NCBI GenBank assembly: GCA_000406005.1
Contig: ASZN01000008.1
Coordinates: 19,327-83,326 of the forward strand
Reading direction: 5' to 3'
Source: Candidatus Poribacteria bacterium WGA-3G
GTDB lineage: Bacteria; Poribacteria; WGA-4E; WGA-3G
DNA: 64,000 bases
Every line of letters begins with the position of its first letter. The stretch's first letter is position 1. The position numbers and the translations under genes are program-made. Positions 11,246-63,187 of the stretch are shown here, piece after piece. Under the pieces are notes generated by a model that saw only the letters and a list, made by a program, of their open reading frames with translations, had not been told where the DNA came from and searched no databases.

Positions 11246-11887
11246 TTAATGGCCCTTTTCACCTTCTCGCGTATCGCGTAGGACTTCCTGATACCTTTCT
11301 TCATTTTCTTGGCTTGGAAATAGGACACTGATCGCTTTCACGTACGCAAGATTTTCCTCAGCAGTCATAATGACTTCATTACCATCTTCCGCATTTTGTG
11401 CAGCTCTGAATGGAAAATACTTCAGAAATATATCTATTTCCGGTATATCCCCATGTTTCGCTATTAAAGCCTTCCTGTTTCTTTCAATTAACTCTTCAAC
11501 TGGTATTTCAGAGAAGTGCGGTTCAGGTTCAGGCGCGGGTTTAGTTGGGTCTAACTTCAGAGAATCACCCAAATCATTATTGGCAGCTTGTCTGGCTTGT
11601 TGTTCCTTAGCAGATTTTACAATCTCAGTTTCATTGTGAATTCTCTGTGTGGTCGGCGAGTAATGATCTCCTTCTGAACGGCTTTGTTTTGGGTCTCGTT
11701 CGACCTGTGTATGTTGTGTAACAACATGTTCAGGTGATTTTTCTGTTTTTGTCTCTATCCTTTTGGTTTGTTTTATTGGACGGTTAGGTAAGCTTTTTTC
11801 AAATTCATTCAATCTATATTCTGTATAGGCATAGAAACCTGCTAATATAACAACCATTGCTATTACGATGTACACTGCATTTCTCAC
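11246..11887 (-). CDS. Hypothetical membrane-anchored protein (KHGDIPEI motif family)
   Basis: N-terminal TM helix AVYIVIAMVVILAGFYAY, a charged linker, then a C-terminal LIAKHGDIPEIDIFLKYF...AYVKAISVLFPSQENE segment resembling the repeats of 4107..4904. AT-rich. Confidence 0.55.
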   Translation of the reverse strand: MRNAVYIVIAMVVILAGFYAYTEYRLNEFEKSLPNRPIKQTKRIETKTEKSPEHVVTQHTQVERDPKQSRSEGDHYSPTTQRIHNETEIVKSAKEQQARQAANNDLGDSLKLDPTKPAPEPEPHFSEIPVEELIERNRKALIAKHGDIPEIDIFLKYFPFRAAQNAEDGNEVIMTAEENLAYVKAISVLFPSQENEERYQEVLRDTREGEKGH

Positions 11888-25816: not shown

Positions 25817-25951
25817 TTAGTTTTCGGTTTTGATTTTGATTTTCGTTTACATAAGTTGACGTTTTCTTATGAAAGATCGCGAGCACAGCTCGCTCCTACA
25901 GAAGAGACTATGCACAGATATAAAGTGAATGTGTAAAACTAAATGGCCCTG
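25808..25951. repeat. 144-bp element bounded by 13-bp perfect inverted repeats CAGGGCCATTTAG/CTAAATGGCCCTG, carrying a GCGAGC..GCTCGC-CTACAGAAG unit
   Basis: Flanked by direct GCTTTCGTC (25800-25808 and 25955-25963). An inverted, related copy lies at ~53565-53685. Confidence 0.6.
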
Positions 25952-36216: not shown

Positions 36217-36927
36217 CTATTGTAAAATAAAATTTCTGTTTTCATCAAACGCGGGAATAGCCCGGGCATCCAATCCAAAAGCGGTATACACGTCTTTCAC
36301 TAAACCGTAAGCTACATGGTCAGGGATAAAATTGTTGCAAGCCCACTGTTCAGAATGAATGGGAGTTGTACCTTCGTACACACCTCTCTCATCCAAGAAT
36401 GCACCAAACGTAGGATAGGTAGGTGGTCCCTCTGGCAACGCATACCCTGTGATATTATGGTAGTTCTGTTGTATGAATACATCAGATTCAATACCAGACG
36501 CATCGTATATTGAATTCACTAATCGCATGAATGAGACAGGAAACTCAATCACTACATACGGGTACAACCATTTTACAGAATTAGGAATTGCAAATTGTGG
36601 GGAACCCCATCCTCTTTGGAACTGGACATTAATAGGACACCGGACTTCAAAATATCCATCCTTTAGCAAGATAATTTGACCTCCAGTTATATTGCGTCCG
36701 TTTATGCCCTCTTCCAATTGATACACTTCCTTTTCCCATAGTCCTGTAACACCAAAACCGGCCCAACGCTTATTCGGTGGATTATACAAAATATCGCGTA
36801 TACGTTGATCTTCGGTAGATACAACGTTCTGATTGGATTCATTCGGTGCCGCGAAGATACGATAATAGGGTTGGTTGGATATAGCCTCAAGAAAAGAAGA
36901 ATTATATTTTGACAAAAGTGAATTCAT
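36217..36927 (-). CDS. Hypothetical protein (236 aa), translationally coupled partner of the AlbA_2-like gene
   Basis: Its ATG overlaps the upstream stop (ATGA at 36924-36927). No recognisable motif. AT-rich. Confidence 0.6.
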   Translation of the reverse strand: MNSLLSKYNSSFLEAISNQPYYRIFAAPNESNQNVVSTEDQRIRDILYNPPNKRWAGFGVTGLWEKEVYQLEEGINGRNITGGQIILLKDGYFEVRCPINVQFQRGWGSPQFAIPNSVKWLYPYVVIEFPVSFMRLVNSIYDASGIESDVFIQQNYHNITGYALPEGPPTYPTFGAFLDERGVYEGTTPIHSEQWACNNFIPDHVAYGLVKDVYTAFGLDARAIPAFDENRNFILQ

Positions 36928-37553
36928 TTGTTCCCTCCAATTTCCTTTAAAATATTTGTTGTTTGACTTTCAATTCTGTCCAACTGTCCCCTAATGTCAT
37001 CCATAGATGACAGCTGATGTCGTGCTAAAAGATCGGGAATGAACTCCTCTATCTGAAACTCTTTTGTAGTATCTCCATACCGCTTCACAAAGTTGAGCGT
37101 CCCTCTTGAATTAAAACCATGAGGACGATTTTCACTAAAAGGAATATGAATGATTATAAGGTTGCACTCTTTGTCCGGCAATCTCAGTTTATGTGGTTTT
37201 ACCTCTAATTTTGCGATTCGTGGAACTATATGTTGGTGGCAAGTGTTATAGATACTCTCAGTTTTTCTTTCTGTATCAGGGATGTCAACAAATCTTTGTG
37301 CAATTTTGTTTTCTTCACCAACACCAATAAGGATATATCCTCCCTCAGCATTAACCATCGCGGTAACATCTTTACATATCTCGCGTTTATACTTCTCGCC
37401 GTCAGTTCTATATCCTTCGTAGTGCCTCTCCTTGAAATCAATCCATAAATTTTCTTCTTGGTTACCGATTAGATCTATCAGATCCTGGTCCTTAATTTCA
37501 GATATCGGTTTATTATCAAATATCATTGCTAATACCTGATCAACCGTATGCAT
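36924..37553 (-). CDS. AlbA_2 (Schlafen-like 'divergent AAA') domain protein, stand-alone
   Basis: SEIKDQDLIDLIGNQEENLWIDFKERHYEG...ICKDVTAMVNAEGGYILIGVGEENKI follows the E-x-x-x-(L/I)-E-(F/Y)-K ... (F/M)-x-N-x-x-GG-x-(L/I)-x-(I/L)-G-V pattern of PF04326-type domains. It lacks the HTH or helicase extensions usually attached. Confidence 0.6.
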   Translation of the reverse strand: MHTVDQVLAMIFDNKPISEIKDQDLIDLIGNQEENLWIDFKERHYEGYRTDGEKYKREICKDVTAMVNAEGGYILIGVGEENKIAQRFVDIPDTERKTESIYNTCHQHIVPRIAKLEVKPHKLRLPDKECNLIIIHIPFSENRPHGFNSRGTLNFVKRYGDTTKEFQIEEFIPDLLARHQLSSMDDIRGQLDRIESQTTNILKEIGGNK

Positions 37554-37854
37554 AGAAATCTATCAAGGTCCACAATTGCAAATGACTTTCTTTCTATAAA
37601 ATCTACCATCTCATCAAATATAGTCATGATAAACCTTCCTACGTTGCCTCTGTTTCCTAACATGAATAGCAAATTCAACACGTAGTGTCAAACCTGTCAA
37701 ACATGCAATTTTAGCGTGTTGACTTTTTCTAAATTTCGTGTGATAATAAGAATATATTACTACATTTATTGGAATTTTGCAAGACGTAAAAAGATATAAT
37801 TCCGAATCGCGAGCACAGCTCGCTCCTACAAAAATACTTAAAGGAGAAGTATAG

Positions 37855-50871: not shown

Positions 50872-50966
50872 ATCCCTGCCCTTGAAATGGAAGGTTGGAA
50901 GTTTCGGGATTGCGGTTCCGTTCTACCCTTCCATTTTTTAATTTTCCTGCCTCTCTACGGTTCACT

Positions 50967-52253
50967 ATGCTTTGGAAATTTGTTTATAACGCCTGCGCTG
51001 TGCCAGCGATGTTCATCGGTTTTCACTGCGCCGGGTGCTGCAACCCTAAAATCCGAGAAGGCATCGACGGAAGAAAACGGGTATTTAGGGAACTGGTTGA
51101 CCAGCTCCAGCGGGCGCGAGATTTAGAAAAAACGGCGTGGTTCCATTTCACCTCTGTCGGTGAGTTCGAGCAGGCGAAACCGCTTATTGAAGCGATTTAT
51201 GCAGAGACCCGGATTGTTTTAACCTTTTTCTCGCCGTCTGTTGCACCGAATGCGAAATCCTACCCTTATGCCGACGCTGCCGTTTACCTGCCTTTAGACA
51301 CACCGCGTAACGCTGAGCGTTTAATACATCTCATTGAACCGGCGTTGATCGTTTTTTCTAAATTCGATATTTGGCCCAATCTCGTCTGGAAAGCCTCCAA
51401 GCATGAGATTCCGATTATCGTGGTCGCTGGTACGCTGCACGCCGAATCGAAACGGTTGTCCGGCTTTGCGAAACCGTTTTTTCGGAGTGTACACCGATAT
51501 ATCCGTGTACATTGTGCGATCTCGGAAACAGATGCGGGGCGTTTTCAACAGCTCTGCTCATCGGGACACGAGATTGTTGTCACGGGGGATACACGCTATG
51601 AACAGGTTTATCGACGGGCAATCTCTGTTGAACCTGATGCGGAATTTTTTCCGGGACAGGGCAGCCTCAAACGTCCTATTCTCATCGCTGGTAGCACCTA
51701 CACTGAGGATGAGAGGGTGCTGTTGCCTGCGTATCAGTTGCTGCGGGAAGACGGGCGAGATGATCATCCGCATCTAATTCTGGTTCCGCATGAACCGACA
51801 CCTGAACGGATAAAGGAGATTCGTGGACATCTAACACGCGAGCGATTGGCGCATCTCTGTTTTTCTGAGCTCACATCTGATGTGGATTTGTCGGCGGTGG
51901 ATGTGCTTATCGTTGATGCCGTGGGACTTCTTGCGAAGTTGTATCGGTTGGCGGATATAGCGTTTGTGGGTGGAAGTTTTCGGGGAAGCGTTCACAATGT
52001 AATGGAGCCTGCTGCGATGGCGAAACCTGTTATTTTCGGTCCGACGATCCAGAATGCCCACGAGGCATCTCTACTTGTAGATCGCGGTGGTGCGAAATTG
52101 GTTCGGACTGCGCAAGAATTGGCAGATGCTATCACGGTGTGGTTAGACGATGCGGATGCGCGGACGATAGCGGGCGATGTTGGCAGGCAGTTGATTGAGG
52201 AAAATTTGGGTGCGGTGGCGCGGACTTTGGGACATTTGCGGAGGTATGTGTGA
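50967..52253 (+). CDS. waaA: 3-deoxy-D-manno-octulosonic acid (Kdo) transferase
   Basis: Start trimmed to ATG 50967. WFHFTSVGEFEQAKPLIEA (the family's wiHaaSvGE block), a C-terminal GT-B half with GGSF...HN.(M/L)EPAA, and a length of ~428 aa. Confidence 0.8.
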   Translation: MLWKFVYNACAVPAMFIGFHCAGCCNPKIREGIDGRKRVFRELVDQLQRARDLEKTAWFHFTSVGEFEQAKPLIEAIYAETRIVLTFFSPSVAPNAKSYPYADAAVYLPLDTPRNAERLIHLIEPALIVFSKFDIWPNLVWKASKHEIPIIVVAGTLHAESKRLSGFAKPFFRSVHRYIRVHCAISETDAGRFQQLCSSGHEIVVTGDTRYEQVYRRAISVEPDAEFFPGQGSLKRPILIAGSTYTEDERVLLPAYQLLREDGRDDHPHLILVPHEPTPERIKEIRGHLTRERLAHLCFSELTSDVDLSAVDVLIVDAVGLLAKLYRLADIAFVGGSFRGSVHNVMEPAAMAKPVIFGPTIQNAHEASLLVDRGGAKLVRTAQELADAITVWLDDADARTIAGDVGRQLIEENLGAVARTLGHLRRYV

Positions 52254-52480: not shown

Positions 52481-53434
52481 TCAATTGCTATTTTCTGTTA
52501 GCGTCCGTGCGAAGTCGTCGAGCGTCTCTGCAAGGATCGCGGCGCGATGCAATTGTGCGAGTCTATCTAAGTCCTCAATTGTCTCAAGTGTGGGTTTGAA
52601 GACAGTCGCTGCATACGGCTTTAATCGGAGCTCAAGCACTTCAAGGATGTCTTTCAGGGCACGTTCTCTGGCACCTTGTTCGATGCCTTGTTCGATGCCT
52701 TGTTCAAGACCTTGTTCGATGCCTTGTTCGATGCCTTGTTCAAGACCTTGTTGTAGTGCTTCTGCCGCGAAGTGTTCAGCAATAGAAGGGCGTTCCATGG
52801 TTTCCTCCGAGATAATATTCAAAATCGTTTCTGGTTCATAGACTAAGCTGCCTAAAACCGCTAACGTCCCAAGATAAGCGGTTTTGTTCTCTACATTCAC
52901 GCTATCTGCCGTTTGTACGCAACGCCGCAACCATGCTTCTGCACTTATGTCCTTAGGACGTTTCATCAAGGGTGTAAAGGGCAGAAGCCCCATAGGCTTT
53001 GCTTCTAAGATGCTTTGTCCGTCTATCTCAATCAGACGAAAAACTTTGTATTGAGTCAAAACCTCATGTCCGGCTATATTTTGTACAAACTGTCCGGGGT
53101 CCCTGCGGCCTGCATCCGGACGAAGATAGATAACGTTGGAATAAACCTCTAATCCATAAGTTTCGATAAGACGAACAATATAACCCGCCATCCGGAGTGA
53201 CATATCGATTTCGGAGCTGTCGGTGGTTTGAAATTCAAAGTGTACGATGACTTGTTTTCCATTGATTTCTGTCTTAATGACGATATCTGCTTGGCGCATA
53301 TCGACCGTGGGTTGTTCCGGTTGGATGAGTTCGATGTCGGTAATATCGATTGTCTCAAAACCGAAGCAGAGGTCGACGAAATCTTTAGGAGATATTTCAG
53401 CGGTTTTCTTAGAGGCCGTATCAAAATTTGCCAC
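52481..53434 (-). CDS. Rpn-family / DUF4351-type PD-(D/E)XK nuclease-like protein with a (EQG[IL])6 tandem repeat
   Basis: ADIVIKTEINGKQVIVHFEFQT (D...E-x-Q nuclease core), YSNVIYLRP and a DUF4351-like C-terminus. Twelve-nt repeats CCTTGTTCGATG/CCTTGTTCAAGA at ~52676-52750. Confidence 0.65.
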   Translation of the reverse strand: MANFDTASKKTAEISPKDFVDLCFGFETIDITDIELIQPEQPTVDMRQADIVIKTEINGKQVIVHFEFQTTDSSEIDMSLRMAGYIVRLIETYGLEVYSNVIYLRPDAGRRDPGQFVQNIAGHEVLTQYKVFRLIEIDGQSILEAKPMGLLPFTPLMKRPKDISAEAWLRRCVQTADSVNVENKTAYLGTLAVLGSLVYEPETILNIISEETMERPSIAEHFAAEALQQGLEQGIEQGIEQGLEQGIEQGIEQGARERALKDILEVLELRLKPYAATVFKPTLETIEDLDRLAQLHRAAILAETLDDFARTLTENSN

Positions 53435-53895
53435 TTAAAGCCTTTCGTTGGTTCAGCACATTTCTTGTAAAATAAATTATAACATATATAAGCAATTTAT
53501 GTCCACTTTTATTCCCCGAGCCCATGGCTATTTAGTTGTACAAGTTCGCTTTATATGTGTGTATGTTTTCCTCTGTAGGAGCGAGCTGGGCTCGCGATAT
53601 TTGAGAAAAACGTCAACATCTATAAACGAAAATCAAAAGCGAAAGCTAAATCGTCCTGCCCCGAGCCCAGGGACATTTAGGTTTAGATAAATTAACTGGA
53701 CCCTAATGCACAGGAAAATAACCGCATCTGCTAATAACGGCAGTCCCAACAGGTAAACCGTATGTGTATAGAAACGCGTACCAACCTATTCTAAGCCCGG
53801 CGGGACGGTATATGTATACGAGCCACTAAATGGATGTCAAATATGTTTCTATGGAATCCAAGTACTTCCTCAAAAACTATTAAAATTATCCAAAG

Positions 53896-56800
53896 TTAGT
53901 AGCTCGTACAAAGCTGACTTTTATTGACATCCTGCCAAGTTATCGGATATTGCTTCAGGTTTTCGATCAACCACTGACGTTCGTACATTTCCACGTGCTG
54001 CGAATGGCTGTACCGACGCGCAGGTTTGTTAAACTCACGGTTTGTGATAACAGCCAATTGGAAGGTCGCTCCATATTTTTCTTCATAAAACGGTTTTGCT
54101 GCTAAAATCTCGTCTACAGCATGATGTCCTGATTTTCCACCTGCTTGTCGATGTTTAGCCTGTATCAGAAGTCCACCAGTATCATTCCCACGCTGACGAG
54201 CAACGACATCCGCACCTTTGTCTCCCGAATACGGGGTTAACACGACATAACATCCTTGTTTATTAAAAAGTGCAGCAACGAAAGCTTCAAAGAACCTCGG
54301 TTCAAGTTTATCAACATCCTCTATTGTTAGCGGCGAACTTTTCTCATCAGTGACATCTATTGGCTGCAAACTCTCAAGAAATTCTTTAGGCGTTACTTCG
54401 GCTTGCTCGGTTGGGAACAACGTGCCTTGTGAAAGTTGGCGTTTTCGCTCAAGGAGCTCGTGTAAAATAACATCAAAAGTTTGAAATTCAGGGTGCGTTG
54501 CCATTGGCAAATAGATATGTACGGGTCGCTCTTGTCCAATGCGGTAAACTCTATCACTTGCCTGATCTTCTTTGGCCGGATTCCACCACCGACTGTAGTG
54601 GATAACGTGGTTTGCTTCAGTGATATTGAGACCTACACCAGCCGAGAGTGGTGACATGATAATGGCGTTGAAACCGGAAGCGTTTTGAAAACGGTCTACG
54701 CTTTGTTGACGACTCATTTTCATTGAATTTGCTCGTTGTGTGCTTCCCGGGGTATCGCCATTTACGATAAAGATATCCTTCAAACCAAAATACTCGCGAA
54801 CGACATCTGCTAATAGGTGTTGTGTCTTTCGGCGTTCAGCAAACAGAATTACTTTCTCGTTGGCGGTGCGTATTTTTTCGAGCAATTGGACTGTCACCAT
54901 TAGTTTTGCCGATTGTTTGATTAATTCGGGGACAGGGATTTGTTCCCATTGAGAATCCGCTAATAGTGGATGATCTGATATATCCCGTAACTGGTGCAAA
55001 ACTTGCAAAATTTGATTACGTTGCTGTGGTCCGTCTGATTCACTATCTTTCGTAGATTGGAAGGCAGCTTGATATCGTTCCGCTTGTATTGGCGGCATGT
55101 CTTGTTGGCAATCTGCATCGTGAATGCGTTTTTTCGGCAGATCGTCAAGAATATCGGTCTTTAGTCGTCTTTTCAGGTAAACGCCGATGCGCTTACGAAT
55201 CTGATCACCGAGGGCGCGAATATCGGTTTCTGGGTTTTTAAGCGGACGACAAAATTCACTGTTGAAATCTTTCGCGCTGTCAAGATGACCCGGTGCTACA
55301 AAATCTGTGATGCACCATAAGTCCATCAAGGAGTTTTCAACTGGCGTTCCTGTCATAGCGAGGCGAAAATCGGTCTTGAGTGCTTTCAATGCATTTGTGA
55401 CAAGTGCTCCGGGGGTTTTGATGCGTTGCGCTTCATCAATAATCACCGTTGCCCACGGAATTAAGCCTAAATCCAATTGGAAGTCTCGAACGGTTTCATA
55501 GGTCGTTAGCACAACATCGGCGTTTCGGAGACGTTTAACATTGAGGGCACCACGGCGTTTGCGTAATTCCAGAAGTCGTTCTGCTCCCTCAATTTCTGGT
55601 ATTTGAAAATTGGCTGCTTCAGATGGATCACACTTGAAGTTTTGTAATGCTTTCCCGTACAATGTAATGAATTCCAGTGAACCTTTGCTAAAAAATTTGG
55701 GATATTCTGCCGCCCAATTCTCTAAAAGTGCAATTGGTGCAACGATGAGGTACGGTCTCTGTTGTGATTCTTGTAGGCGATGTTTTTTGTGATGCCATTC
55801 GAGAAAACAGAGCACTTGTAAGGTTTTACCAAGCCCCATGTCATCGGCAAGTAAACCTCCGAGATAGTTGTTTTCCCAAAGTTGCTGTGCCCACGCAAGG
55901 CCTTCCTCTTGATGTGATAAGAGTTTAACCCCTTGTTTCAGATTTGGTGTAGGTTCCAGAAGGTGTCGAAACGGTTCTTCAACTTTTGAAGTGGACGTTT
56001 TTTCAATATAATCAGTGTCTTCAATGTTTTCATCAATGATTAAGACTGTAGTTTCAGGTTTCTCCCCGGGAACGCGCGAGGGCTTTTTGCGATGTTTGAG
56101 TTGTTTTTCGATAAATGGAAGATGTTTTTCAACATCTGGAACGGAAAATTCTTGTCCTTTCCACTTAATCTGATTTTGCCCTGTCCGCTTCGCTTCATGA
56201 ATTGTTTGTTTTAAGTCTACGAGTTCTTCCTCGGTTTTAATTTTAAACTTTTTCTGTGTTCCTGACTGGTCTTCAACTAAAATACCCGGGATCCACTCAC
56301 TTTTGTAGGGCGAAACGAACGGATAAACTCTTGGTTTGTAGATGCCGATTTCACGGACGCGTTCACTGAAAGATAGCGTCTCATCTGTCGGATCCAGTTC
56401 AATAACTTCGGGATCAAAGTACAACTGTGGTTGTTCCGCAATTTCCGCGAGTTCTTCACGAGGGACACGTCGATACTGCTTAAGGGTTTGCAAAGCCTCT
56501 TTCTGTTTTTCTTCAAAAAGAACACGGGTTCGTCCACCATCGGTTTGGGAAAGATTGTACGTCGTCTGAGAGGTTGGAAATTTATCAAATATTGCCTCAA
56601 ATTGTTCACTGTTAATATCAGCGACATTTGGAATTATTTCAACGCTATTGCCGGATTCACGTAGACGCAAACGAACTGTTTTGGGGGCAACGACTTCTTC
56701 TTGGTTTAGATATTGATCCAATGCACTTCCTGTCTCTTTGGCGAGCCCCTTAATTTTCGCGAACTCGATCAAATTTGCCTCAAAACTTTTATCTGTCGTA

Positions 56801-57291
56801 TCTCGCGTGTTGAACGCGTCTAATTTTTCTAAGAGTGTGAACTGTTCGTGCGTTAGGAGGTACGCCCATTCCTCAGTCAAGCGCAGAATACAACCGGTTC
56901 GTGTTGGATACAAAGGTTTCCAATCGGGTTTCAAGAATCGGTAATTGTAGCGGAATTCTGGCTGGTTGAAAGTGCCATCTGATCGGATTTCGATTTCAAA
57001 TGGATAGGGTTCAGGTAAACCGAGGAGTTCCTGCTCAACAGACTCAAGGCGACATACCTCCTCAAATGGAATATGAATACTTGTGTCTGATGCTTCTGCT
57101 TGGCCGTTATCAAGCAATTCCTTTAGCAGCAGCCATTGTGCCTGTGTTTGATAGGCATCTGGTGGCAGGTTAGCAGTGTATTCAGTCAGAGTGACGTTAT
57201 CCGATGGGATGGTAAACCGAATACCACTTGGTGTCTCATCCCAGTTGAATTGGGATGTTTTAGTTTCGGACTTTCGGAATAAGTTTAACAT
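53896..57291 (-). CDS. zorD: ZorD-like: SNF2-family helicase with C-terminal Mrr-type restriction endonuclease domain
   Basis: LLADDMGLGKTLQ (motif I), IIDEAQRIK (motif II), helicase C-terminal QASDRVYRIGQ (motif VI). C-terminal FEAFVAALFNKQGCYVVLTPYSGDKGADVVA...LLIQAKH (Mrr_cat D...(D/E)xK core). It is the last gene of the four-gene module. Confidence 0.8.
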   Translation of the reverse strand: MLNLFRKSETKTSQFNWDETPSGIRFTIPSDNVTLTEYTANLPPDAYQTQAQWLLLKELLDNGQAEASDTSIHIPFEEVCRLESVEQELLGLPEPYPFEIEIRSDGTFNQPEFRYNYRFLKPDWKPLYPTRTGCILRLTEEWAYLLTHEQFTLLEKLDAFNTRDTTDKSFEANLIEFAKIKGLAKETGSALDQYLNQEEVVAPKTVRLRLRESGNSVEIIPNVADINSEQFEAIFDKFPTSQTTYNLSQTDGGRTRVLFEEKQKEALQTLKQYRRVPREELAEIAEQPQLYFDPEVIELDPTDETLSFSERVREIGIYKPRVYPFVSPYKSEWIPGILVEDQSGTQKKFKIKTEEELVDLKQTIHEAKRTGQNQIKWKGQEFSVPDVEKHLPFIEKQLKHRKKPSRVPGEKPETTVLIIDENIEDTDYIEKTSTSKVEEPFRHLLEPTPNLKQGVKLLSHQEEGLAWAQQLWENNYLGGLLADDMGLGKTLQVLCFLEWHHKKHRLQESQQRPYLIVAPIALLENWAAEYPKFFSKGSLEFITLYGKALQNFKCDPSEAANFQIPEIEGAERLLELRKRRGALNVKRLRNADVVLTTYETVRDFQLDLGLIPWATVIIDEAQRIKTPGALVTNALKALKTDFRLAMTGTPVENSLMDLWCITDFVAPGHLDSAKDFNSEFCRPLKNPETDIRALGDQIRKRIGVYLKRRLKTDILDDLPKKRIHDADCQQDMPPIQAERYQAAFQSTKDSESDGPQQRNQILQVLHQLRDISDHPLLADSQWEQIPVPELIKQSAKLMVTVQLLEKIRTANEKVILFAERRKTQHLLADVVREYFGLKDIFIVNGDTPGSTQRANSMKMSRQQSVDRFQNASGFNAIIMSPLSAGVGLNITEANHVIHYSRWWNPAKEDQASDRVYRIGQERPVHIYLPMATHPEFQTFDVILHELLERKRQLSQGTLFPTEQAEVTPKEFLESLQPIDVTDEKSSPLTIEDVDKLEPRFFEAFVAALFNKQGCYVVLTPYSGDKGADVVARQRGNDTGGLLIQAKHRQAGGKSGHHAVDEILAAKPFYEEKYGATFQLAVITNREFNKPARRYSHSQHVEMYERQWLIENLKQYPITWQDVNKSQLCTSY

Positions 57292-57306
57292 CCGTGTTCC
57301 TTTCGT

Positions 57307-58845
57307 TTAGGACTCAAAGTAGTGCTCAAAGGCGGTCAGGCAGTTAGAGCATCTAATTCTTCTTATAATACCCTTCCTTGTAGTGATCGTTAGCCTTTGC
57401 CTGCAACTCTTGTTAGGACATCTTATGATAACAGAATCAGATTTTATAGGGACAGAATTAGATTTTCGTTCCAGTCGATAACTTCGCACAGGCTCAATAC
57501 CAATCTCACGCTCTAACCACGAGGCGAATCCATCTTGCCAAGAATACTTCTCTGAGCCATTGTGAATTACCCGATGTTCAGCCCATGACAGGGAACGTAA
57601 CTCGTCCATCCGGTATTCTGAGTCTCCCACTTCAAATGGAAGATCAGAGTTTTGGTAAACATAACATGCCCCTGCTGTGCTAAACTCAACAAATGTGTAC
57701 TCACCCATTTGAATAATAAAAGCGTGTTGATCGCTTGTACCGCCTTTTAAAGTTGCGGGTTGACGATCTCGGTAGTATTGCAGAGCTTGTGGATCGTGAC
57801 GAAAAAGGTATTCGGCGTTTTTTCGCAACACTGGTCGACAAAAGGTGATTTCTTCAAAATACGCCAGCCAGAAGGCTTTGCGATAGGCAAACTTCTGATC
57901 ATTACAAGCCTTTGCGACAACGTCGAAAAAGAAACGGATGTCTTCTTCTGTAACCCATTTCGTGAAGATTTGACGGGCTTTATCAGATACATCGCGCCAA
58001 CGGACATCTGCGCCAGCGATACGCGGGTCTTGCCATTTTTGAAGAACGTAAGATTGAACAAGTTGGCGCAGATCCGCAGTTGCTTCAGACCCAAGTTTTT
58101 CAATGAGTTTAGATAGAACGATCCGGCTTGTTTTGTCATTGTTGTGCTTTTTCACAAACGCGATGACATCTTTAACGTATTCAATATCTATCTGATTATT
58201 GAATGTTGTGTATGATGTAGCGACCGCGCCAAAGTATGTATAACTATGCATATAGTCTGGCAATTCGAGAAATGTCCAGACATTTGACAACTTGTTGGGT
58301 GAGCGTATCAAGTACATTGCAAGATTTGTCGAACTGTTTTCCTCACAGTACCACGCTATGTTCGCTTTTAATTTCTGCACGAATTTTCGAGAACCGGTGT
58401 AGTCAGTCAGGTGTTTTTTGAGAAATGCTCGGAGTAAGGCTGCATTTGGGGTATCCCAGGCTTGTAGCAATGCGTTAAAAATACCGAGAAGCATACTGGT
58501 ACGGAATTGGTTTTCGATTAATTGGAGTGCGTTTTGAAGGCTCGGAGTATCTACAATTCGGGGCAATTCATTTTCGGAGTAGGTCAAAGTCCAAGCGAGT
58601 TGCCGGATACGTCTGAGAGAGTCAAATTCTGAGGAAAGTTTACCGGTGGGTGTTGTTATAAATTGGCGGTAAACTTGCCGCAAATTTTCTCTATTTGGCA
58701 AATCAGAATTAGGACCATCATGTGTTTTGATAATTTTTTCCAAAGTTTCAAGTTGTTCTTTGGGGATTATGTCAGGACGTGGAGCGCGTGCAGCAAAACT
58801 GGTTGCGTCGAAATTGAACTGCAGCAGTATTTTAGCGGAATTCAT
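57307..58845 (-). CDS. zorC: ZorC-like protein (expected EH-signature domain) with C-terminal Cys4 zinc-ribbon
   Basis: Assignment rests mainly on position and size between the MotB-like and SNF2-Mrr genes. Start trimmed to ATG 58845 (GGAGGAG RBS), overlapping the MotB-like gene by 14 nt. C-terminal CPNKSC-x17-CSNC. Confidence 0.6.
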   Translation of the reverse strand: MNSAKILLQFNFDATSFAARAPRPDIIPKEQLETLEKIIKTHDGPNSDLPNRENLRQVYRQFITTPTGKLSSEFDSLRRIRQLAWTLTYSENELPRIVDTPSLQNALQLIENQFRTSMLLGIFNALLQAWDTPNAALLRAFLKKHLTDYTGSRKFVQKLKANIAWYCEENSSTNLAMYLIRSPNKLSNVWTFLELPDYMHSYTYFGAVATSYTTFNNQIDIEYVKDVIAFVKKHNNDKTSRIVLSKLIEKLGSEATADLRQLVQSYVLQKWQDPRIAGADVRWRDVSDKARQIFTKWVTEEDIRFFFDVVAKACNDQKFAYRKAFWLAYFEEITFCRPVLRKNAEYLFRHDPQALQYYRDRQPATLKGGTSDQHAFIIQMGEYTFVEFSTAGACYVYQNSDLPFEVGDSEYRMDELRSLSWAEHRVIHNGSEKYSWQDGFASWLEREIGIEPVRSYRLERKSNSVPIKSDSVIIRCPNKSCRQRLTITTRKGIIRRIRCSNCLTAFEHYFES

Positions 58846-59596
58846 TGTCTCCTCCAATCATATCCTCAAGTTCCTTGATTTTCTCAAGTTGCTTTTCTGC
58901 GTTTGTCCGTACGCGGAACTCTACACGTCTTGATTCTTCACTGTTTTCAGTACTATTTGAATGCATTATCAACTTACTTGAAGACAAACCGTTAGCAGTC
59001 AATTGCTGCTGTAGCCAATTTTTACTTTCGCGAATTTCAGGTATCTGAAGTACATATTGTAGGACACTTCTCGTTCTGTCTTGCGATAATTCCATATTGA
59101 AAATATAGGCCTCTTCAGGGGTGACATCTTCTGACCACTCACTTGAGGTATGCCCTTCAATCCGAATTTCTGCGATAGCCTTAACATATTCCGGTCGTTT
59201 TAAAATCCGAACATAGCGTGGAAAAAAGTCATCCAACATCTTTTTAAAGTCGGATTTAACATCTGCTTTGCCTTGATCAAATAAAACTTCAGGTTCTCTG
59301 AAACGAACTGACAGGGTTTCATGATCCAAGAGGGCATTCCATTGCCGAAGATCTTTCTCAAATTCTGTTTCAAGAGCGAGGTACAAGTTTTGCCGTAACG
59401 CGGCATAATCTGTAAAAATTTTCAGTAGGACCTGCTGAATTTCGTCATCACGCTTCTCTTTTTCCATCAAGTCCAACATAAGGAAAGAGAGGACGAGTAT
59501 GAAGATAAGCAGAAGACCTGCCATCAAGTCGCCTAATGAGAGACTAAAAGGATTTTCATCTACAAGAGTTTTGGAGGTAGACGGTGTTCTTGACAT
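58832..59596 (-). CDS. zorB: ZorB-like: MotB-type stator plug/TM plus OmpA-like peptidoglycan-binding domain
   Basis: FSLSLGDLMAGLLLIFILVLSFLML (TM with a conserved Asp, as in MotB/ExbD). C-terminal IEGHTSS...NMELSQDRTRSV...RRVEFRV OmpA-like block. Starts 3 nt after the ZorA-like stop. Confidence 0.8.
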   Translation of the reverse strand: MSRTPSTSKTLVDENPFSLSLGDLMAGLLLIFILVLSFLMLDLMEKEKRDDEIQQVLLKIFTDYAALRQNLYLALETEFEKDLRQWNALLDHETLSVRFREPEVLFDQGKADVKSDFKKMLDDFFPRYVRILKRPEYVKAIAEIRIEGHTSSEWSEDVTPEEAYIFNMELSQDRTRSVLQYVLQIPEIRESKNWLQQQLTANGLSSSKLIMHSNSTENSEESRRVEFRVRTNAEKQLEKIKELEDMIGGDNEFR

Positions 59597-59599
59597 TAC

Positions 59600-61951
59600 C
59601 TATAACCTCCGTTGGTTTGTTTGCTTTTCTATCATATCTGTCAATTCGTGAACGTTTTCTTCGAGAGCCTCAACGCCACCTGCAAGTGCTGCTGACGCAT
59701 CTGTCAGGTGTTTGGAGAAGTCGCTGAGATAGGTATTGATTGAGTCCCGGGCGGTTGTGGAATAATTTGTTAAACCTCCTTCAATTTCTTCAAAGATGCC
59801 TGTCAATCCAGTATTGATTGTTTGGAAACGTTGCGCGAAATCGTTGAGTAGCTGTCGTGATTGCCCAAGAGTGTTCTGGAGTTGTTGAGTCGTCTCTCGA
59901 TTAGCTGTAAGATATTTGGCGTTTTCTTCAGTAAATGTTTCACTTACTTCTATTAGTTGCTCGCTTGCATCTTCAAGCCTATCGCCGCTTGTAAGCAATA
60001 AGTCAGATAAGGTTTGCGTATTTTCAAGGAGGGCTTGGACTTTGGTTACGCTTGTATCCATCTGTTGCAACATATTACTACTCTTTTCAAGTGTTTCCTG
60101 CGAATTGGCTATCTGTGCGTTGACTTCTTTGATTTGGTTTTCCTGTTGTTCCAAGAGTGAACTGACACTCAATTCTCCAGATGCGAAAATACTATCAAGG
60201 CGGGTAGTGCTCTGTTCTACAAGTTGATGCATCCGCGTTATCATCGCTTCCGATTTTTCTGTTGTTTGTGACGCGATAGATGTCATTGATTTTTGTAATT
60301 CCGCAATTAAGGTTTGTAGTGTTTGAGTGGTCTGAGCAGAGGTCTGCTCTATATCCGTTATGCGTTGTGCCAATTGTTCATCAGTACGCTTTGCTGCCGA
60401 TTCCAATAGATCTCGTATCTGGTTGGCGATTTGCTCCATTTCTTGATTCATGCTATCAGTCGTGGCGGTCAATCCCGCCTTATGTGTATCAATCGCGTTT
60501 TGAAATGCGCTTGACCCGCTCTCCATCATATTTTTAACCTGTTCTGTTTGATTTTGGGATGTTTCCGATAGCAATTTTCGCGTTTGGTTAACCTGATCCT
60601 GTATGCCGAGCATCATGCTTGCTAACTGTTCTGGCAGCGTTATCAAACTTTGGCTTGCTTTGTTAACAGTTTCAGCAAGTGCTTCCATTTGCGCTGTTGC
60701 TGACCCTGAAAGAGATTGTTGGAATTCTACAACGAGTTGCTGGATAGCGTCAGCTGAGGATTCTTCCTTGTGTTTCTGTAATGCCTCAACGGCGGAATTC
60801 AGGTTGTTGAAACTGGGCGCGAACTTTTTCTCTAATGCACTACCGAAGGCATCTGGAGCGTTACGAAGTTCTCGAAGAATCTCTTGATTTCCTTCGATTA
60901 TAGTCTGCTTAATCTCGCTAACAACGTTATTTAGGTTATCAAGGTTGGGGGATAACTGCTTTTCGATTGTTGTGCTCAGGACTTGGTGGGTATTAGACAG
61001 CTGCTGAAGGATTTGTTGGTTTCCATTTTCCATTGTACTTTTGAGAGTTGTTGTGGAATCTGTAACTGCACTATTCAGGTGATTTAGGCTGGGTGTCAGC
61101 TGCTCACCAATAGCGTTGCTGAAGGTCTCAGGGGCATTGCGAAATTCCGAGATAATTTCTTGCCGTCCTTGTGCCATAGCACTTTTAATCTCGTTTGCGA
61201 GGTCTGTAGAGAAGGCTTTGAGTGCCTGTGTCTGTTGTGCAAGTTCATCCTCTTGCCGAAACGCTATCTCTTCTTGTGTGGTCAATGTAAATAGTCGATC
61301 CAGCGTGCGTTGCAACACTGCAATTTTGCTACTTACCCAGCCGATGCAGGATTTCTCTATCCAATTGAATAAAAGCGACAATAGCATACCCCAAACGGAG
61401 GTTACGAATGCTGTGGATACTCCAGATAGGAGAGATTGAATTGCACTGCGAATGTTCTCTGTTTGTTGAAAGTCAATATTTGAAAAGGGCAGTAGTCCCC
61501 AAACCAGTCCAACAAAGGTTCCCAAAATACCCAATCCTACGAGCAGGGCTGGCACACTATTCCAAAATCGAAGGTTCATGTATTGTCCGAGCAGTCGCTC
61601 TTCGCCGAAAAAGAGGGATGCCTCGTCTGTTTTATAGACTATTTTCCCTTGGTTTTTTTCGGGTTCTCGGGTAATCAGTGAATTCTGAAACTCATGCCAA
61701 ACCTCAGCAAGTTCACTGTTGCAATCAAACTCCGTTTCGAGATGTGGTAAGATCTCCGGTTTAGCAGGTTTTAGGTGTTGACTGACTTTGTTAGTTAAAT
61801 TGTTAATCAGGCCGGATCGGCGGATGGTTTTCCATAGGAAGATTCCCAAACAAATAAAAAAAGATGAAAGGATACCGTAAACAAAAATGTCTGTAATCGG
61901 ATTGAAACCACGTGCTGGCCATGGGAGAAGTAGTTTTAAAAATTCGTTCAT
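59600..61951 (-). CDS. zorA: ZorA-like: MotA/ExbB/TolQ-type proton-channel domain with a ~580-aa coiled-coil tail
   Basis: Three TM helices (aa ~22-40, 131-152, 176-196) with ALLVGLGILGTFVGL and STAFVTSVWGMLLSL (MotA/ExbB signatures). These are followed by a Q/E/L/S/T-rich heptad-like sequence to aa 783, including three 46-aa tandem repeats. Confidence 0.8.
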   Translation of the reverse strand: MNEFLKLLLPWPARGFNPITDIFVYGILSSFFICLGIFLWKTIRRSGLINNLTNKVSQHLKPAKPEILPHLETEFDCNSELAEVWHEFQNSLITREPEKNQGKIVYKTDEASLFFGEERLLGQYMNLRFWNSVPALLVGLGILGTFVGLVWGLLPFSNIDFQQTENIRSAIQSLLSGVSTAFVTSVWGMLLSLLFNWIEKSCIGWVSSKIAVLQRTLDRLFTLTTQEEIAFRQEDELAQQTQALKAFSTDLANEIKSAMAQGRQEIISEFRNAPETFSNAIGEQLTPSLNHLNSAVTDSTTTLKSTMENGNQQILQQLSNTHQVLSTTIEKQLSPNLDNLNNVVSEIKQTIIEGNQEILRELRNAPDAFGSALEKKFAPSFNNLNSAVEALQKHKEESSADAIQQLVVEFQQSLSGSATAQMEALAETVNKASQSLITLPEQLASMMLGIQDQVNQTRKLLSETSQNQTEQVKNMMESGSSAFQNAIDTHKAGLTATTDSMNQEMEQIANQIRDLLESAAKRTDEQLAQRITDIEQTSAQTTQTLQTLIAELQKSMTSIASQTTEKSEAMITRMHQLVEQSTTRLDSIFASGELSVSSLLEQQENQIKEVNAQIANSQETLEKSSNMLQQMDTSVTKVQALLENTQTLSDLLLTSGDRLEDASEQLIEVSETFTEENAKYLTANRETTQQLQNTLGQSRQLLNDFAQRFQTINTGLTGIFEEIEGGLTNYSTTARDSINTYLSDFSKHLTDASAALAGGVEALEENVHELTDMIEKQTNQRRL

Positions 61952-61985
61952 ATAATTTGCTCTATGAGTTGTCTTTTAGTCCCTT

Positions 61986-63026
61986 TCATTTTTGATCTGC
62001 TGTTGTCTCGTAGCGGATTGTTAGGAGTGGACGGAGGGTTGCGTCGGTTGCTTCTTTTGAGGTGAATACGATGGGGACATTGCCATCTTTTAAGGCGAAG
62101 AGGTAACCGTAGTTGTAGTCGGGGTTTGCGACCCAAAAACGGACGGCATCGGTGAGGTGCTCGCTTTTGAATTCATAACGTTTGTCTGCGCCTTGAATTT
62201 CGCTCGTGCCGTCAATGCGGTGGGCGACATCCTCGGAACCGTTGTAGTCGCTCTCGTTGTCGCCGTTTATGCCTGAGAGCATGGCTTGTGCTGGCGGTCT
62301 GTTCCACGGGAGTTCGCGATGCAACGCGCTGTTATAAGTGAGTTCGTTGTCTTCTGCACGCGTTGATGTGCCTCTACCTTCTTTCCACGGGAGCAGGACA
62401 CGCCGGTAGAGAACGGTTTGCACAGCGTCGGTTTCACACTGCTGAACATGTAGACTTATCGTTGCTTCTAAGACCTGTGCGGGTTCACGAATCCCTATAT
62501 CTTCAAATGCGTCAAATAGATCAAAGGCGACGAAGAAGACACTCCCTGTCGGATCACATAAAAGCGTCGGTTCGGCACCGGCATTGTTGTTTCGTGTCTT
62601 TCGATCTTTATAGACAAGCAGCGTGGTGTCCTGCAAACCGCCGGAGAAAGTAACGGCATCGCTTGCGCCGAAGGTTATTTCGTTTACGGGTGGGAGTGTA
62701 ACCACGATTCCGGTTTGTGAATTTGGAAGCGTGAGACGGTAGGTTTTTTTTCCCTCTAACGGTGTCGTCATCAATAAGACGCGGTTGCGTCGTTGGTCGA
62801 GTAACGCGTATTCGATTTCGGCATCCGGTGCGATTTGGTAATTATTGAGGTCTTCGGCTGTCTCTGCTTGCAGTTCTCCGTTGAATTGTAATTGAATAGC
62901 GGTTTGGGAGAGCGGGGTTGCCGCCACGAGTTCTGGTATGTCGGCAGCGTCGGCGGCTGAGATATGGCAAAATAGGAGTGATAGAAATATGAGAACCGTG
63001 TACGCTACGTTAAAATAGGTTTTCAA
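61986..63026 (-). CDS. Secreted protein: N-terminal Ig-like domain plus DNRLRE-like (disaggregatase-related) domain
   Basis: Signal peptide ...CHISAADA. LTDAVRFWVANPDYNYGYLFAL resembles the conserved C-terminal block of DNRLRE domains. GC is normal compared with the adjacent Zorya genes. Confidence 0.55.
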   Translation of the reverse strand: MKTYFNVAYTVLIFLSLLFCHISAADAADIPELVAATPLSQTAIQLQFNGELQAETAEDLNNYQIAPDAEIEYALLDQRRNRVLLMTTPLEGKKTYRLTLPNSQTGIVVTLPPVNEITFGASDAVTFSGGLQDTTLLVYKDRKTRNNNAGAEPTLLCDPTGSVFFVAFDLFDAFEDIGIREPAQVLEATISLHVQQCETDAVQTVLYRRVLLPWKEGRGTSTRAEDNELTYNSALHRELPWNRPPAQAMLSGINGDNESDYNGSEDVAHRIDGTSEIQGADKRYEFKSEHLTDAVRFWVANPDYNYGYLFALKDGNVPIVFTSKEATDATLRPLLTIRYETTADQK

Positions 63027-63047: not shown

Positions 63048-63177
63048 ATCGCGAGCGCAGCTCGCTCCTACAGAGGCGTTTATCGCGAGCGCAGCTCGCT
63101 CCTACAGAGGCGTTTATCGCGAGCGCAGCTCGCTCCTACAGAGGCGTTTATCGCGAGCGCAGCTCGCTCCTACAGAA
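63048..63177. repeat. Tandem array, 3.8 copies of a 34-bp unit ATCGCGAGCGCAGCTCGCTCCTACAGAGGCGTTT
   Basis: Units at 63048, 63082, 63116 and 63150 (partial). Each contains the hairpin GCGAGC-GCA-GCTCGC followed by CTACAGA(G/A)G. Single copies at 25875-25905, 37806-37834 and 53571-53598 (inverted). Confidence 0.85.
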
Positions 63178-63187
63178 GAGCCGAGAT

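What the first reader, a model, noticed from the sequence alone, without database searches (positions are those of the whole stretch)
53896..61951. Complete four-gene Zorya type I-like defence module (zorA-zorB-zorC-zorD order) on an AT-rich island
Four tightly packed or overlapping minus-strand genes match the published type I Zorya architecture.
1. A 783-aa MotA/ExbB-like protein has three TM helices with ...GILGTFVGL... and ...AFVTSVWGML... signatures, followed by a ~580-aa coiled-coil tail.
2. A 254-aa MotB-like protein has a TM Asp (SLGDLMAGLL) and an OmpA-like domain (IEGHTSS...RRVEFRV).
3. A ~512-aa protein of otherwise unrecognisable sequence sits at the ZorC position and ends in a CPNKSC-x17-CSNC zinc ribbon.
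4. An 1131-aa SNF2 helicase (DDMGLGKT, DEAQRIK, QASDRVYRIGQ) carries a C-terminal Mrr-type nuclease core.

Gene junctions suggest one operon: a 3-nt gap, a 14-nt overlap and a 15-nt gap. Sampled lines are ~40-45% GC against ~50-55% in the flanks, which suggests horizontal acquisition. Zorya is established knowledge; its presence in this genome, the zinc-ribbon on the ZorC-like protein and the repeat-built tail are the points worth examining.
Basis: partly seen in the sequence, partly recalled or inferred. Interest (0 to 1): 0.85.

Follow-up and report, generated by a model that had tools for sequence, protein, structure and literature searches.

The report
Type I Zorya phage-defence operon
This is a complete, intact four-gene type I Zorya anti-phage system in a variable slot of a sponge-symbiont (Candidatus Poribacteria) genome, so it is a clear member of a well-studied family with a few lineage-specific decorations and not a new kind of system.

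Summary
Four minus-strand genes at 53896-61951 are zorA (783 aa), zorB (254 aa), zorC (512 aa) and zorD (1131 aa), with the stated 3-nt gap, 14-nt overlap and 15-nt gap. All four match type I Zorya models: PADLOC ZorA1 3e-49, ZorB 2e-83, ZorC 4e-34, ZorD E=0; Pfam EH_Signature 1e-37, SNF2 3e-57, Mrr_cat 2e-17. They also match the solved Zorya structures. Catalytic and signature residues are intact.

The source is Candidatus Poribacteria. The same zorABCD order occurs in every one of the 37 related loci that holds enough DNA.

The operon is compositionally distinct (GC3 0.38-0.41 against roughly 0.45-0.58). It sits in a variable slot between two convergent core genes that is empty in some relatives. 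A near-identical relative has lost it by a 9.2-kb deletion, so the island is old and accessory, not a recent arrival.

Lineage-specific points:
- ZorB's periplasmic domain is type II-like.
- The ZorA ion filter matches the Na+-bound Shewanella ZorA.
- The ZorC zinc ribbon is confined to this clade and is optional within it.
- The ZorA tail has three diverged ~46-aa repeats, and copy number varies among relatives.

Verdict: new member of a known kind, of modest interest.

The parts
59600..61951 (-). zorA: 783-aa MotA-like motor subunit with a long cytoplasmic tail
   Evidence: PADLOC ZorA1 PDLC00601 gives 2.8e-49. NCBIfam antiphage_ZorA_2 scores 125.4 bits, above its cut-off of 100. PDB 8qyd E. 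coli ZorA gives 3.6e-24, with the alignment running through the tail.
61292..61951 (-). ZorA motor region (aa 1-220): TM1, membrane-proximal cytoplasmic domain, TM2 and TM3, with ion-filter residues T145 and T184-S185
   Evidence: Hydrophobic segments lie at 18-44, 129-158 and 177-196. The region aligns to 8qyd and 8vvn from residue 20-28 onward, but to type II ZorA 8vvi_F only over 130-225. GILGTF and AF(V/I)TSVWG are present in every Poribacteria-clade locus in which this part of zorA was recovered.
59603..61291 (-). ZorA cytoplasmic tail (aa 221-783, 563 residues)
   Evidence: The tail aligns with the E. coli ZorA tail. Its hydrophobic period is 3.65 residues, with power 4.46 against a shuffle maximum of 2.45; the heptad period of 3.5 has power 0.14. 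Tail identity to relatives is only 31-88%, and ZorA length among six compared loci is 645-816 aa.
60752..61180 (-). Three diverged tandem ~46-aa repeats in the proximal ZorA tail (aa ~258-400)
   Evidence: Self-comparison scores are 85, 67 and 61 against a shuffle maximum of 47. Relatives carry 1-3 copies.
58832..59596 (-). zorB: 254-aa MotB-like stator subunit with TM Asp D23 and an OmpA-like peptidoglycan-binding domain of the type II-like class
   Evidence: PADLOC ZorB2 PDLC00641 gives 2.1e-83 and ZorB1 PDLC00609 gives 2.2e-61. Pfam OmpA gives 9.9e-9 over aa 105-221. PDB 8vvi (S. kujiense type II ZorB) gives 6.4e-43, against 1.7e-8 and 3.3e-6 for the type I ZorBs.
57307..58845 (-). zorC: 512-aa EH-signature protein (E387, H428)
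   Evidence: Pfam EH_Signature gives 1.2e-37 and PADLOC ZorC1 gives 4e-34. The AlphaFold2 model's only significant PDB match is 8r68, E. coli ZorC, at E = 6.8e-9. E387 and H428 are invariant in 24 aligned homologues.
57319..57438 (-). ZorC C-terminal zinc ribbon (aa 470-509; C476, C481, C499, C502), joined to the core by a disordered linker
   Evidence: All four Cys are conserved wherever the module is present. The AlphaFold2 model shows four short strands at 470-509 and a linker at 454-468 with pLDDT below 50. The last 44 residues hold 9 K+R against 3 D+E. Pfam zinc-ribbon hits are sub-threshold.
53896..57291 (-). zorD: 1131-aa Snf2-family ATPase with a C-terminal Mrr-type nuclease
   Evidence: PADLOC ZorD1 PDLC00631 gives E=0 (1140 bits), matching aa 49-1122 to profile positions 33-1070 of 1071. 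PDB 8qy7, E. coli ZorD, gives 8.5e-121.
54535..55914 (-). ZorD Snf2 ATPase core (SNF2-rel_dom aa 460-775, Helicase_C aa 802-919; K489 Walker A, DEAQ 619-622)
   Evidence: Pfam PF00176 gives 3.3e-57 and PF00271 gives 3.9e-13.
53962..54312 (-). ZorD Mrr_cat PD-(D/E)xK nuclease domain (aa 994-1110; D1028, Q1044-x-K1046)
   Evidence: Pfam PF04471 gives 1.7e-17. A (L/V)(L/V)(I/V)Q.K motif was found in all but one of the loci whose recovered zorD runs through this domain, including all three distant phyla. E. coli ZorD ends about 14 residues after the point that aligns to residue 962 here, so it has no such domain.
52840..62005 (.). Variable island relative to a near-identical relative (L039): zorABCD plus the 5' two-thirds of the neighbouring 317-aa gene
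   Evidence: blastn against L039 aligns window 64000-62006 at 94% and 52839-49000 at 98.9%, with the 9,166 bp in between absent from L039. More distant relatives L041 and L042 have the two flanking core genes adjacent.

Best explanation
This is a functional type I Zorya anti-phage system (zorABCD) of a Candidatus Poribacteria sponge symbiont.

The mechanism is inferred by homology to the E. coli system described in PMC11946911.
1. Five ZorA and two ZorB subunits form an inner-membrane ion-driven rotary motor.
2. When phage attack perturbs the envelope, the ZorB OmpA-like domain anchors to peptidoglycan.
3. Ion flow past ZorB D23 and the ZorA T145/T184/S185 filter turns ZorA and its ~563-residue tail. 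That tail would be about 78 nm long if scaled from E. coli.
4. The signal recruits ZorC (a DNA binder) and ZorD (an Snf2 ATPase and nuclease), which destroy the incoming phage DNA locally.

Three local particulars are all inferred.
- The coupling ion is probably Na+ and not H+.
- The DNA-cleaving site is probably the C-terminal Mrr-type domain, which E. coli ZorD lacks.
- The basic zinc ribbon stands in the position of the E. coli ZorC C-terminal globular domain, which that protein needs for DNA binding.

What is shown here is gene content, domain content, intact motifs and co-conservation. What is inferred is the stoichiometry, rotation, recruitment, ion type and anti-phage activity.
For: Family matches:
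- All four proteins hit type I Zorya models strongly.
- They also hit the solved Zorya chains 8qyd, 8vvn, 8vvi, 8r68 and 8qy7.
- The predicted ZorC fold matches only 8r68.

Intact functional residues:
- ZorB D23.
- ZorA T145 and S185, equivalent to E. coli T147 and S184, whose double mutant loses defence (PMC11946911).
- ZorC E387 and H428, equivalent to E. coli E400 and H443.
- ZorD GLGKT and DEAQ.
- Mrr D1028 and Q1044-x-K1046.

The tight junctions are consistent with a single operon.

Conservation:
- zorABCD order is kept in 37 related loci.
- Identity to the window is 75-91% for the ZorD Snf2 core and 57-87% for the ZorC core.

Ion type: the filter AFVTSVWG equals Shewanella ANA-3 AFLTSVWG, and that structure has Na+ bound (PMC11890865). 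E. coli has AFLGSAFA and was called H+-driven because it lacks the extra polar residue (PMC11946911).

The tail's hydrophobic period of 3.65 residues fits the right-handed bundle described for E. coli ZorA.
Against: - No experiment was done, and no phage of Poribacteria is in hand.
- The NCBIfam type I equivalog models all score below their cut-offs (ZorA1 84 of 750, ZorB1 33 of 400, ZorC 80 of 490, ZorD 547 of 1500). The proteins are therefore far from the curated exemplars.
- ZorB resembles type II ZorB more than type I ZorB.
- The second E. coli Ca2+-site residue, E89, is N90 here.
- No sigma-70-like promoter lies upstream of zorA, and only 34 nt separate it from the preceding gene.
- The zinc ribbon is missing from roughly half of the related species, so it cannot be essential to the core mechanism.
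Confidence: 0.93

Rival explanations
1. It is a distinct Poribacterial Zorya sub-lineage and not a plain type I system. In this reading a conserved core is combined with swappable interface modules that change sensing or targeting. The core is the ZorA TM2-3, the ZorB TM helix, the ZorC core and the ZorD Snf2 domain. The swappable modules are the ZorA tail repeats, the ZorB periplasmic domain and the ZorC C-terminal module.
For: - Segment identities are strongly uneven. The ZorA tail is 31-88% and ZorA residues 1-120 are 41-90%, with mosaic combinations: L001 is 56% in the N-terminal part but 88% in the tail, and L009 is 90% and 75%.
- The ZorB periplasmic domain is bimodal. It is 55-78% identical in most loci but 27-31% in L007, L021, L029, L030 and L034; L007, the one scanned, hits the ZorB1 model PDLC00609 best.
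- The ZorC C-terminus takes four forms: zinc ribbon, nothing, HEAT repeats or an FGE-sulfatase domain.
- Among the best 150 clusters of 1,674 ZorC relatives, only three have the zinc ribbon, and all three fall in the same clade as the Poribacteria homologues.
Against: - PADLOC already holds a type I ZorB model (PDLC00609) that this ZorB hits at 2e-61, so type I systems with similar ZorBs are known.
- ZorA tail-length variation across Zorya is already described (PMC11946911).
- Nothing here shows that the modules alter function.
- Gene order, domains and motifs all satisfy the type I definition.
Confidence: 0.3
2. The operon is a decaying relic, or has been co-opted for a role other than phage defence, in a host-restricted symbiont.
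For: - It is dispensable. A relative with 94-99% identical flanks has deleted it, and other relatives have an empty slot.
- Two assemblies, L005 and L011, share a frameshift that cuts the zinc ribbon off ZorC.
- No recognisable promoter lies upstream of zorA.
Against: - All four reading frames in the window are intact and every catalytic or signature residue is present.
- Conservation across 27 species-level representative contigs labelled Poribacteria (ZorD Snf2 core 75-91%) indicates purifying selection.
- Presence/absence polymorphism is what is expected of an active accessory defence gene set.
Confidence: 0.05
3. It is another Snf2-containing defence system (Dpd, DISARM, BREX-associated helicase) or an ordinary MotAB/ExbBD-type motor that happens to sit next to a helicase.
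For: ZorD also hits DpdE (1.3e-124), DrmD and BrxH models. ZorB hits flagellar MotB and MotS models weakly.
Against: - The ZorD1 score is 1140 bits against 415 for the best DpdE model.
- ZorA carries the 563-residue tail.
- The EH-signature gene always lies between zorB and zorD.
- PADLOC and Pfam scans of the four operon proteins and of the neighbouring genes tested returned no Dpd, DISARM or BREX partner.
Confidence: 0.01

Closest known systems
E. coli NCTC9026 type I Zorya (EcZorI; PDB 8QYD ZorAB, 8R68 ZorC, 8QY7 ZorD; PMC11946911)
   Same: - The gene order is zorABCD.
- ZorA has three TM helices, the membrane-proximal domain and a long tail that aligns end to end.
- The ZorB TM Asp, the ZorC EH pair and the ZorD Snf2 motifs are all present.
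   Different: - The ZorA filter is T-S where E. coli has G-S, which is the Na+-type pattern.
- The tail is 563 residues against 507.
- ZorB matches E. coli ZorB only at 3e-6.
- The ZorC C-terminal globular domain is replaced by a ~40-residue zinc ribbon. Only residues 268-409 (numbered from the upstream TTG start, 516-aa form) align by sequence.
- ZorD has an extra 170-residue Mrr-type nuclease domain that is absent from E. coli ZorD.
Shewanella sp. ANA-3 type I ZorAB (PDB 8VVN; PMC11890865)
   Same: It has the type I ZorA architecture and an identical TSVWG ion-filter motif, with Na+ seen in that structure.
   Different: ZorB is only distantly similar, at 1.7e-8. The tail sequences do not align significantly beyond residue ~260.
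Sulfuricurvum kujiense type II ZorAB (PDB 8VVI; PMC11890865)
   Same: Its ZorB is the closest solved relative of this ZorB, at 6.4e-43 over residues 16-246. This agrees with the PADLOC ZorB2 and NCBIfam ZorB2 models being the best hits.
   Different: - Its ZorA is the short type II form, which aligns only to residues 130-225 here at 1e-4.
- Its effector is the ZorE HNH nickase, which is absent here.
- This ZorB has an 11-residue longer segment after the TM helix.
Flagellar stators MotAB / PomAB
   Same: These share the 5:2 ion-driven motor family. They have the conserved Asp on the B subunit, a Thr/Ser ring on the A subunit and an OmpA-like peptidoglycan-binding domain.
   Different: They have no cytoplasmic tail and no ZorC or ZorD partners. 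The Pfam MotA_ExbB hit is below threshold.

Membership tests
Type I Zorya (Doron 2018 / PADLOC definition) | ZorA: a MotA/ExbB-like membrane protein with a long C-terminal helical tail | tested here: met
   PADLOC ZorA1 gives 2.8e-49 and 8qyd gives 3.6e-24. ZorA has three hydrophobic segments and a 563-residue tail with a 3.65-residue hydrophobic period.
Type I Zorya (Doron 2018 / PADLOC definition) | ZorB: a MotB-like protein with the conserved TM aspartate and an OmpA-like peptidoglycan-binding domain | tested here: met
   D23 lies in SLGDLM. PADLOC ZorB gives 2.1e-83 and 2.2e-61, and Pfam OmpA gives 9.9e-9, above its cut-off.
Type I Zorya (Doron 2018 / PADLOC definition) | ZorC: an EH-signature domain with the conserved Glu and His | tested here: met
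   PF15611 gives 1.2e-37. E387 and H428 are invariant in 24 homologues. Foldseek to 8r68 gives E = 6.8e-9.
Type I Zorya (Doron 2018 / PADLOC definition) | ZorD: an Snf2-family helicase, with an Mrr-like nuclease in the PADLOC description | tested here: met
   PADLOC ZorD1 gives E=0 over the full model length. Pfam gives SNF2 3.3e-57, Helicase_C 3.9e-13 and Mrr_cat 1.7e-17.
Type I Zorya (Doron 2018 / PADLOC definition) | Gene order zorA-zorB-zorC-zorD on one strand, conserved as a unit | tested here: met
   Junctions of +3, -14 and +15 nt. The same order is found in all 37 related loci that hold enough DNA.
Type I Zorya (Doron 2018 / PADLOC definition) | ZorA5:ZorB2 complex with a pentameric tail, and protection against phage | not testable with these tools
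   This needs multimer prediction or cryo-EM, plus plaque assays.
NCBIfam type I Zorya equivalogs (E. coli-like exemplars; an annotation threshold, not a family definition) | Score at or above the curated cut-off of NF041794, NF041788, NF041789 and NF041790 | tested here: not met
   The scores are 84 of 750, 33 of 400, 80 of 490 and 547 of 1500. Only the subfamily model NF033915 passes, at 125 of 100. This explains why the public names returned for close homologues are only generic, such as 'OmpA family protein' and 'EH signature domain-containing protein'.
Type II Zorya | A ZorE HNH endonuclease downstream of a short-form ZorA and ZorB | tested here: not met
   No ZorE hit appears among the operon proteins or the adjacent 317-aa gene product. 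ZorA is the long type I form. Only ZorB is type II-like.
Type III Zorya | ZorF (DUF3348) and ZorG (DUF2894) partners | tested here: not met
   No such Pfam hits occur in the operon or the adjacent genes.
Na+-coupled 5:2 motors (PomAB-like filter) | An additional polar residue next to the conserved Ser/Thr on the inner helix of the A subunit | tested here: met
   T184-S185 lie in AFVTSVWG, identical to the Na+-bound Shewanella ZorA and unlike E. coli G183-S184 (PMC11890865; PMC11946911). The motif is consistent with Na+ coupling but does not prove ion use.

The most novel reading that the evidence does not exclude
Poribacterial Zorya is a modular sub-lineage. Three interface modules are exchanged or resized between otherwise conserved cores, and together they set what the system senses and targets. 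The modules are the ZorA tail repeat number, the ZorB periplasmic domain class and the ZorC C-terminal module (zinc ribbon, HEAT, FGE-sulfatase or none). In this reading the window's copy is a Na+-driven version that cleaves DNA through the Mrr domain and not through the Snf2 core.
Probability: 0.3. Interest if true: 0.5.

Novelty: new member of a known kind. Interest (0 to 1): 0.3.

Why it matters
Zorya's mechanism has been worked out in only a few Proteobacteria. This locus extends type I Zorya to an uncultivated sponge-symbiont phylum, where it occurs in at least 27 species-level representative contigs labelled Poribacteria.

The set of related loci forms a natural series of variants around a conserved core:
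- tails of 645-816 aa built from different repeat numbers;
- two ZorB periplasmic classes;
- four kinds of ZorC C-terminus;
- an Mrr-bearing ZorD.

That series could guide experiments on which parts of Zorya carry signal and specificity. It does not change the current picture of how Zorya works.

Tried and rejected
- **Inverted repeats as island ends.** The 30-nt inverted repeats bracketing the region (53570-53599 against 63048-63179) looked like island ends. The unit is in fact a dispersed REP-like element, with further copies at 25878 and 37808. It is absent from the related Zorya-bearing loci L001 and L005. I rejected it as an attachment site.
- **Negative scans.** No tRNA and no Rfam family is present in the window. 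The promoter and terminator scans give no more hits than shuffles, and nothing upstream of zorA.
- **DNA-level repeats in zorA.** TRF finds none, so the tail repeats are old and visible only at protein level.
- **'Short' ZorC relatives.** Some are artefacts of a frameshift. L005 and L011 keep an intact zinc ribbon in another frame, and the apparent 1176-aa ZorD in L005 is only an upstream ORF extension. Others truly lack the module.
- **The ZorB homologue search.** It returned only close homologues, with Poribacteria the only organism named, and did not help place ZorB between the Zorya types. PADLOC, NCBIfam and PDB comparisons did that instead.
- **Recent horizontal acquisition.** I rejected this in favour of an old accessory island.

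Full report
**Observation.**
- zorA is 59600-61951 (783 aa).
- zorB is 58832-59596 (254 aa).
- zorC is 57307-58845 from its ATG (512 aa). An upstream TTG would give 516 aa.
- zorD is 53896-57291 (1131 aa).

The junctions are a 3-nt gap, a 14-nt overlap and a 15-nt gap. Every quoted motif is present. ZorA has three hydrophobic segments. The four cysteines of the ZorC C-terminus are C476, C481, C499 and C502, with 17 residues between the two knuckles.

**Identity.**
- PADLOC assigns all four proteins to type I Zorya: ZorA1 2.8e-49, ZorB 2.1e-83, ZorC1 4e-34, and ZorD1 E=0 over the full model.
- Pfam gives EH_Signature 1.2e-37, OmpA 9.9e-9, SNF2-rel_dom 3.3e-57, Helicase_C 3.9e-13 and Mrr_cat 1.7e-17. 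The generic MotA_ExbB model is just below its threshold.
- The solved Zorya structures are the best PDB matches for each protein: 8qyd ZorA 3.6e-24, 8r68 ZorC 3e-11 and 8qy7 ZorD 8.5e-121.
- An AlphaFold2 model of ZorC (mean pLDDT 73) has 8r68 as its only significant structural match.
- The NCBIfam equivalog models for type I Zorya all score far below their cut-offs. This fits the generic names returned for close homologues and shows that the proteins are distant from the E. coli exemplars.

**Source and conservation.** The same ZorC sequence is encoded on GCA_000406025.1, contig ASZM01000006.1. Where a public name is given for a close homologue, it is almost always Candidatus Poribacteria.
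- A scan of one genome per species found 30 loci. Of these, 25 are labelled Poribacteria MAGs, two carry other labels and are probably mis-assigned, and three are distant (Spirochaetales, Myxococcota, Deltaproteobacteria).
- In every locus that holds enough DNA, the four genes occur in the order zorABCD on one strand.

**The island.** The operon has 43.2% GC against 48.2% for the rest of the window. Its GC3 is 0.38-0.41 against about 0.45-0.58 for most other genes. It lies between two convergent core genes: a Poribacteria-specific 346-aa gene (61986-63026) and the Kdo transferase gene (50895-52253).
- Seven loci share this slot, with ZorD 79-88% identical.
- Two other groups of relatives carry the operon in different slots.
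- In each genome the operon's GC follows the host but stays 1.5-5 points lower.
- Relatives L041 and L042 have the slot empty, with about 50 nt between the two core genes. L040 holds an unrelated gene there.
- L039 has flanks 94-99% identical to the window. It lacks exactly 52840-62005 and retains only the last 105 codons of the neighbouring 317-aa gene. That is a deletion of the operon, not an insertion in the window.
- The last ~10 codons of the 346-aa gene change with the slot content, and zorA starts 10-34 nt after its stop. No promoter-like site was found in that gap.
- I conclude that the operon is an old, dispensable island in a variable slot.

**Mechanism.** By homology with the E. coli system (PMC11946911) I infer the following. 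A ZorA5B2 ion-driven motor, once anchored to peptidoglycan after envelope perturbation, rotates its tail. It then recruits ZorC and ZorD to degrade phage DNA.
- The residues shown to be essential in E. coli are present here: ZorB D23, ZorA T145/S185, ZorC E387/H428 and the ZorD DEAQ box.
- The tail has 563 residues against 507 in E. coli. Its hydrophobic period of 3.65 residues is close to 11/3 and far from the heptad, which fits the right-handed bundle described for E. coli.

**Differences from the exemplars.**
1. *ZorB.* It is closest to type II ZorB. It matches 8vvi at 6.4e-43, against 1.7e-8 and 3.3e-6 for the type I ZorBs. The PADLOC and NCBIfam ZorB2 models are its best hits. ZorA, by contrast, is the long type I form. 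Five related loci have a ZorB periplasmic domain only 27-31% identical to this one. L007, the one scanned, hits the ZorB1 model PDLC00609 best.
2. *Ion filter.* The ZorA filter reads AFVTSVWG, as in the Na+-bound Shewanella ZorA. E. coli has AFLGSAFA (PMC11890865). The motif is present in every Poribacteria-clade locus in which this part of zorA was recovered, with one V-to-I change. Na+ coupling is a reasonable prediction for a marine symbiont.
3. *ZorD.* It carries an Mrr-type nuclease domain that E. coli ZorD lacks. The PADLOC description of ZorD includes this domain, and the PDLC00631 model covers it.
4. *ZorC.* It ends in a basic zinc ribbon after a disordered linker.
   - The ribbon sits where E. 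coli ZorC has a C-terminal globular domain needed for DNA binding (PMC11946911).
   - Among the 150 best clusters of 1,674 ZorC relatives, only three have the ribbon, and all three fall in the same clade as the Poribacteria homologues.
   - Within the clade it is in frame in the window and 15 related loci, frameshifted in three and absent from the rest.
   - Other members carry HEAT repeats or an FGE-sulfatase domain instead.

**Tail repeats.** Three diverged ~46-aa repeats lie at about residues 258-400. Relatives carry one to three copies. A second ~57-aa unit is present once here and three times in L006 and L007. This accounts for ZorA lengths of 645-816 aa. The repeats are not detectable at DNA level.

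**Uneven conservation.** Identity to the window by segment is as follows.

| Segment | Identity to the window |
|---|---|
| ZorD Snf2 core | 75-91% |
| ZorA TM2-3 | 69-98% |
| ZorB TM helix | 66-92% |
| ZorC core | 57-87% |
| ZorA tail | 31-88% |
| ZorA residues 1-120 | 41-90% |

The last two rows occur in mosaic combinations. This pattern is compatible either with recombination between alleles or with fast evolution of the interface parts. I did not test which.

**Verdict.** This is a genuine and apparently intact type I Zorya system. It is a new member of a known kind, in a phylum where I found no specific report of it. The lineage-specific features are worth noting but do not alter the established model. 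Interest is modest.

Noticed in passing
window 52481-53434 (-); L001 5746-6639 and 15603-16472; L039 11094-11411: The 317-aa gene next to zorD carries (EQGI/EQGL) repeats. It has a weak Rpn-family recombination-promoting nuclease hit (TIGR01784, E = 0.019) and a near-consensus promoter at 53505-53476. Two copies flank the Zorya operon in L001. The deletion that removed Zorya in L039 has one breakpoint inside this gene, so it may promote rearrangement of the slot.
   Followed up: partly
window 63048-63176, 53572-53596 (-), 25878-25902, 37808-37832: A 34-nt REP-like palindromic unit (core CGCGAGCNCAGCTCGCTCCTACAGA) is dispersed in intergenic DNA, with 3.8 tandem copies at 63048-63176. It is present in the same-strain loci L002 and L003 but absent from the related species' loci fetched up to that point.
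   Followed up: partly
L005 about 11350-11520; L011 (OZ251998.1); L022: In these relatives zorC is frameshifted just before the zinc ribbon, which stays intact in another frame. L005 and L011 are independent assemblies and share the same shift. It is therefore either a real truncation or a recoding site, and not a read error.
   Followed up: partly
P0121 (746 aa); P0089, P0102, P0106, P0111, P0112; L006 10001-11746; L034: Some ZorC homologues in this clade carry an FGE-sulfatase domain (1.2e-62) or HEAT repeats in place of the zinc ribbon. Several others end in a conserved ...DTSEWWNY tail.
   Followed up: partly
window 36217-37553 (-): A low-GC3 (0.34-0.36) two-gene cassette encodes a 209-aa SLFN_AlbA_2 protein (PF04326, 1e-16; weak PADLOC PDC-S50, 3e-7) overlapping a 236-aa protein with no family hit. 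A REP-like unit lies just upstream. This may be a second defence locus.
   Followed up: partly
window 4107-5021 (-) and 11246-11887 (-): Two further ORFs have very low GC3 (0.32 and 0.30) and no hit in Pfam, NCBIfam or PADLOC.
   Followed up: partly
window 61986-63026 (-): The 346-aa gene upstream of zorA is conserved in relatives (446 homologues; Poribacteria is the only organism named). It has a hydrophobic, signal-peptide-like N-terminus by eye and a sub-threshold DNRLRE-domain hit (28.5 bits against a 34 cut-off). Its last ~10 codons differ according to what occupies the downstream slot.
   Followed up: partly
L007, L021, L029, L030, L034 (zorB): These Poribacteria loci pair a conserved ZorB TM helix (66-76% identical to the window) with a different periplasmic domain (27-31% identical). 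L007, the one scanned, hits the ZorB1 model PDLC00609 best. This suggests domain-level replacement within zorB.
   Followed up: partly
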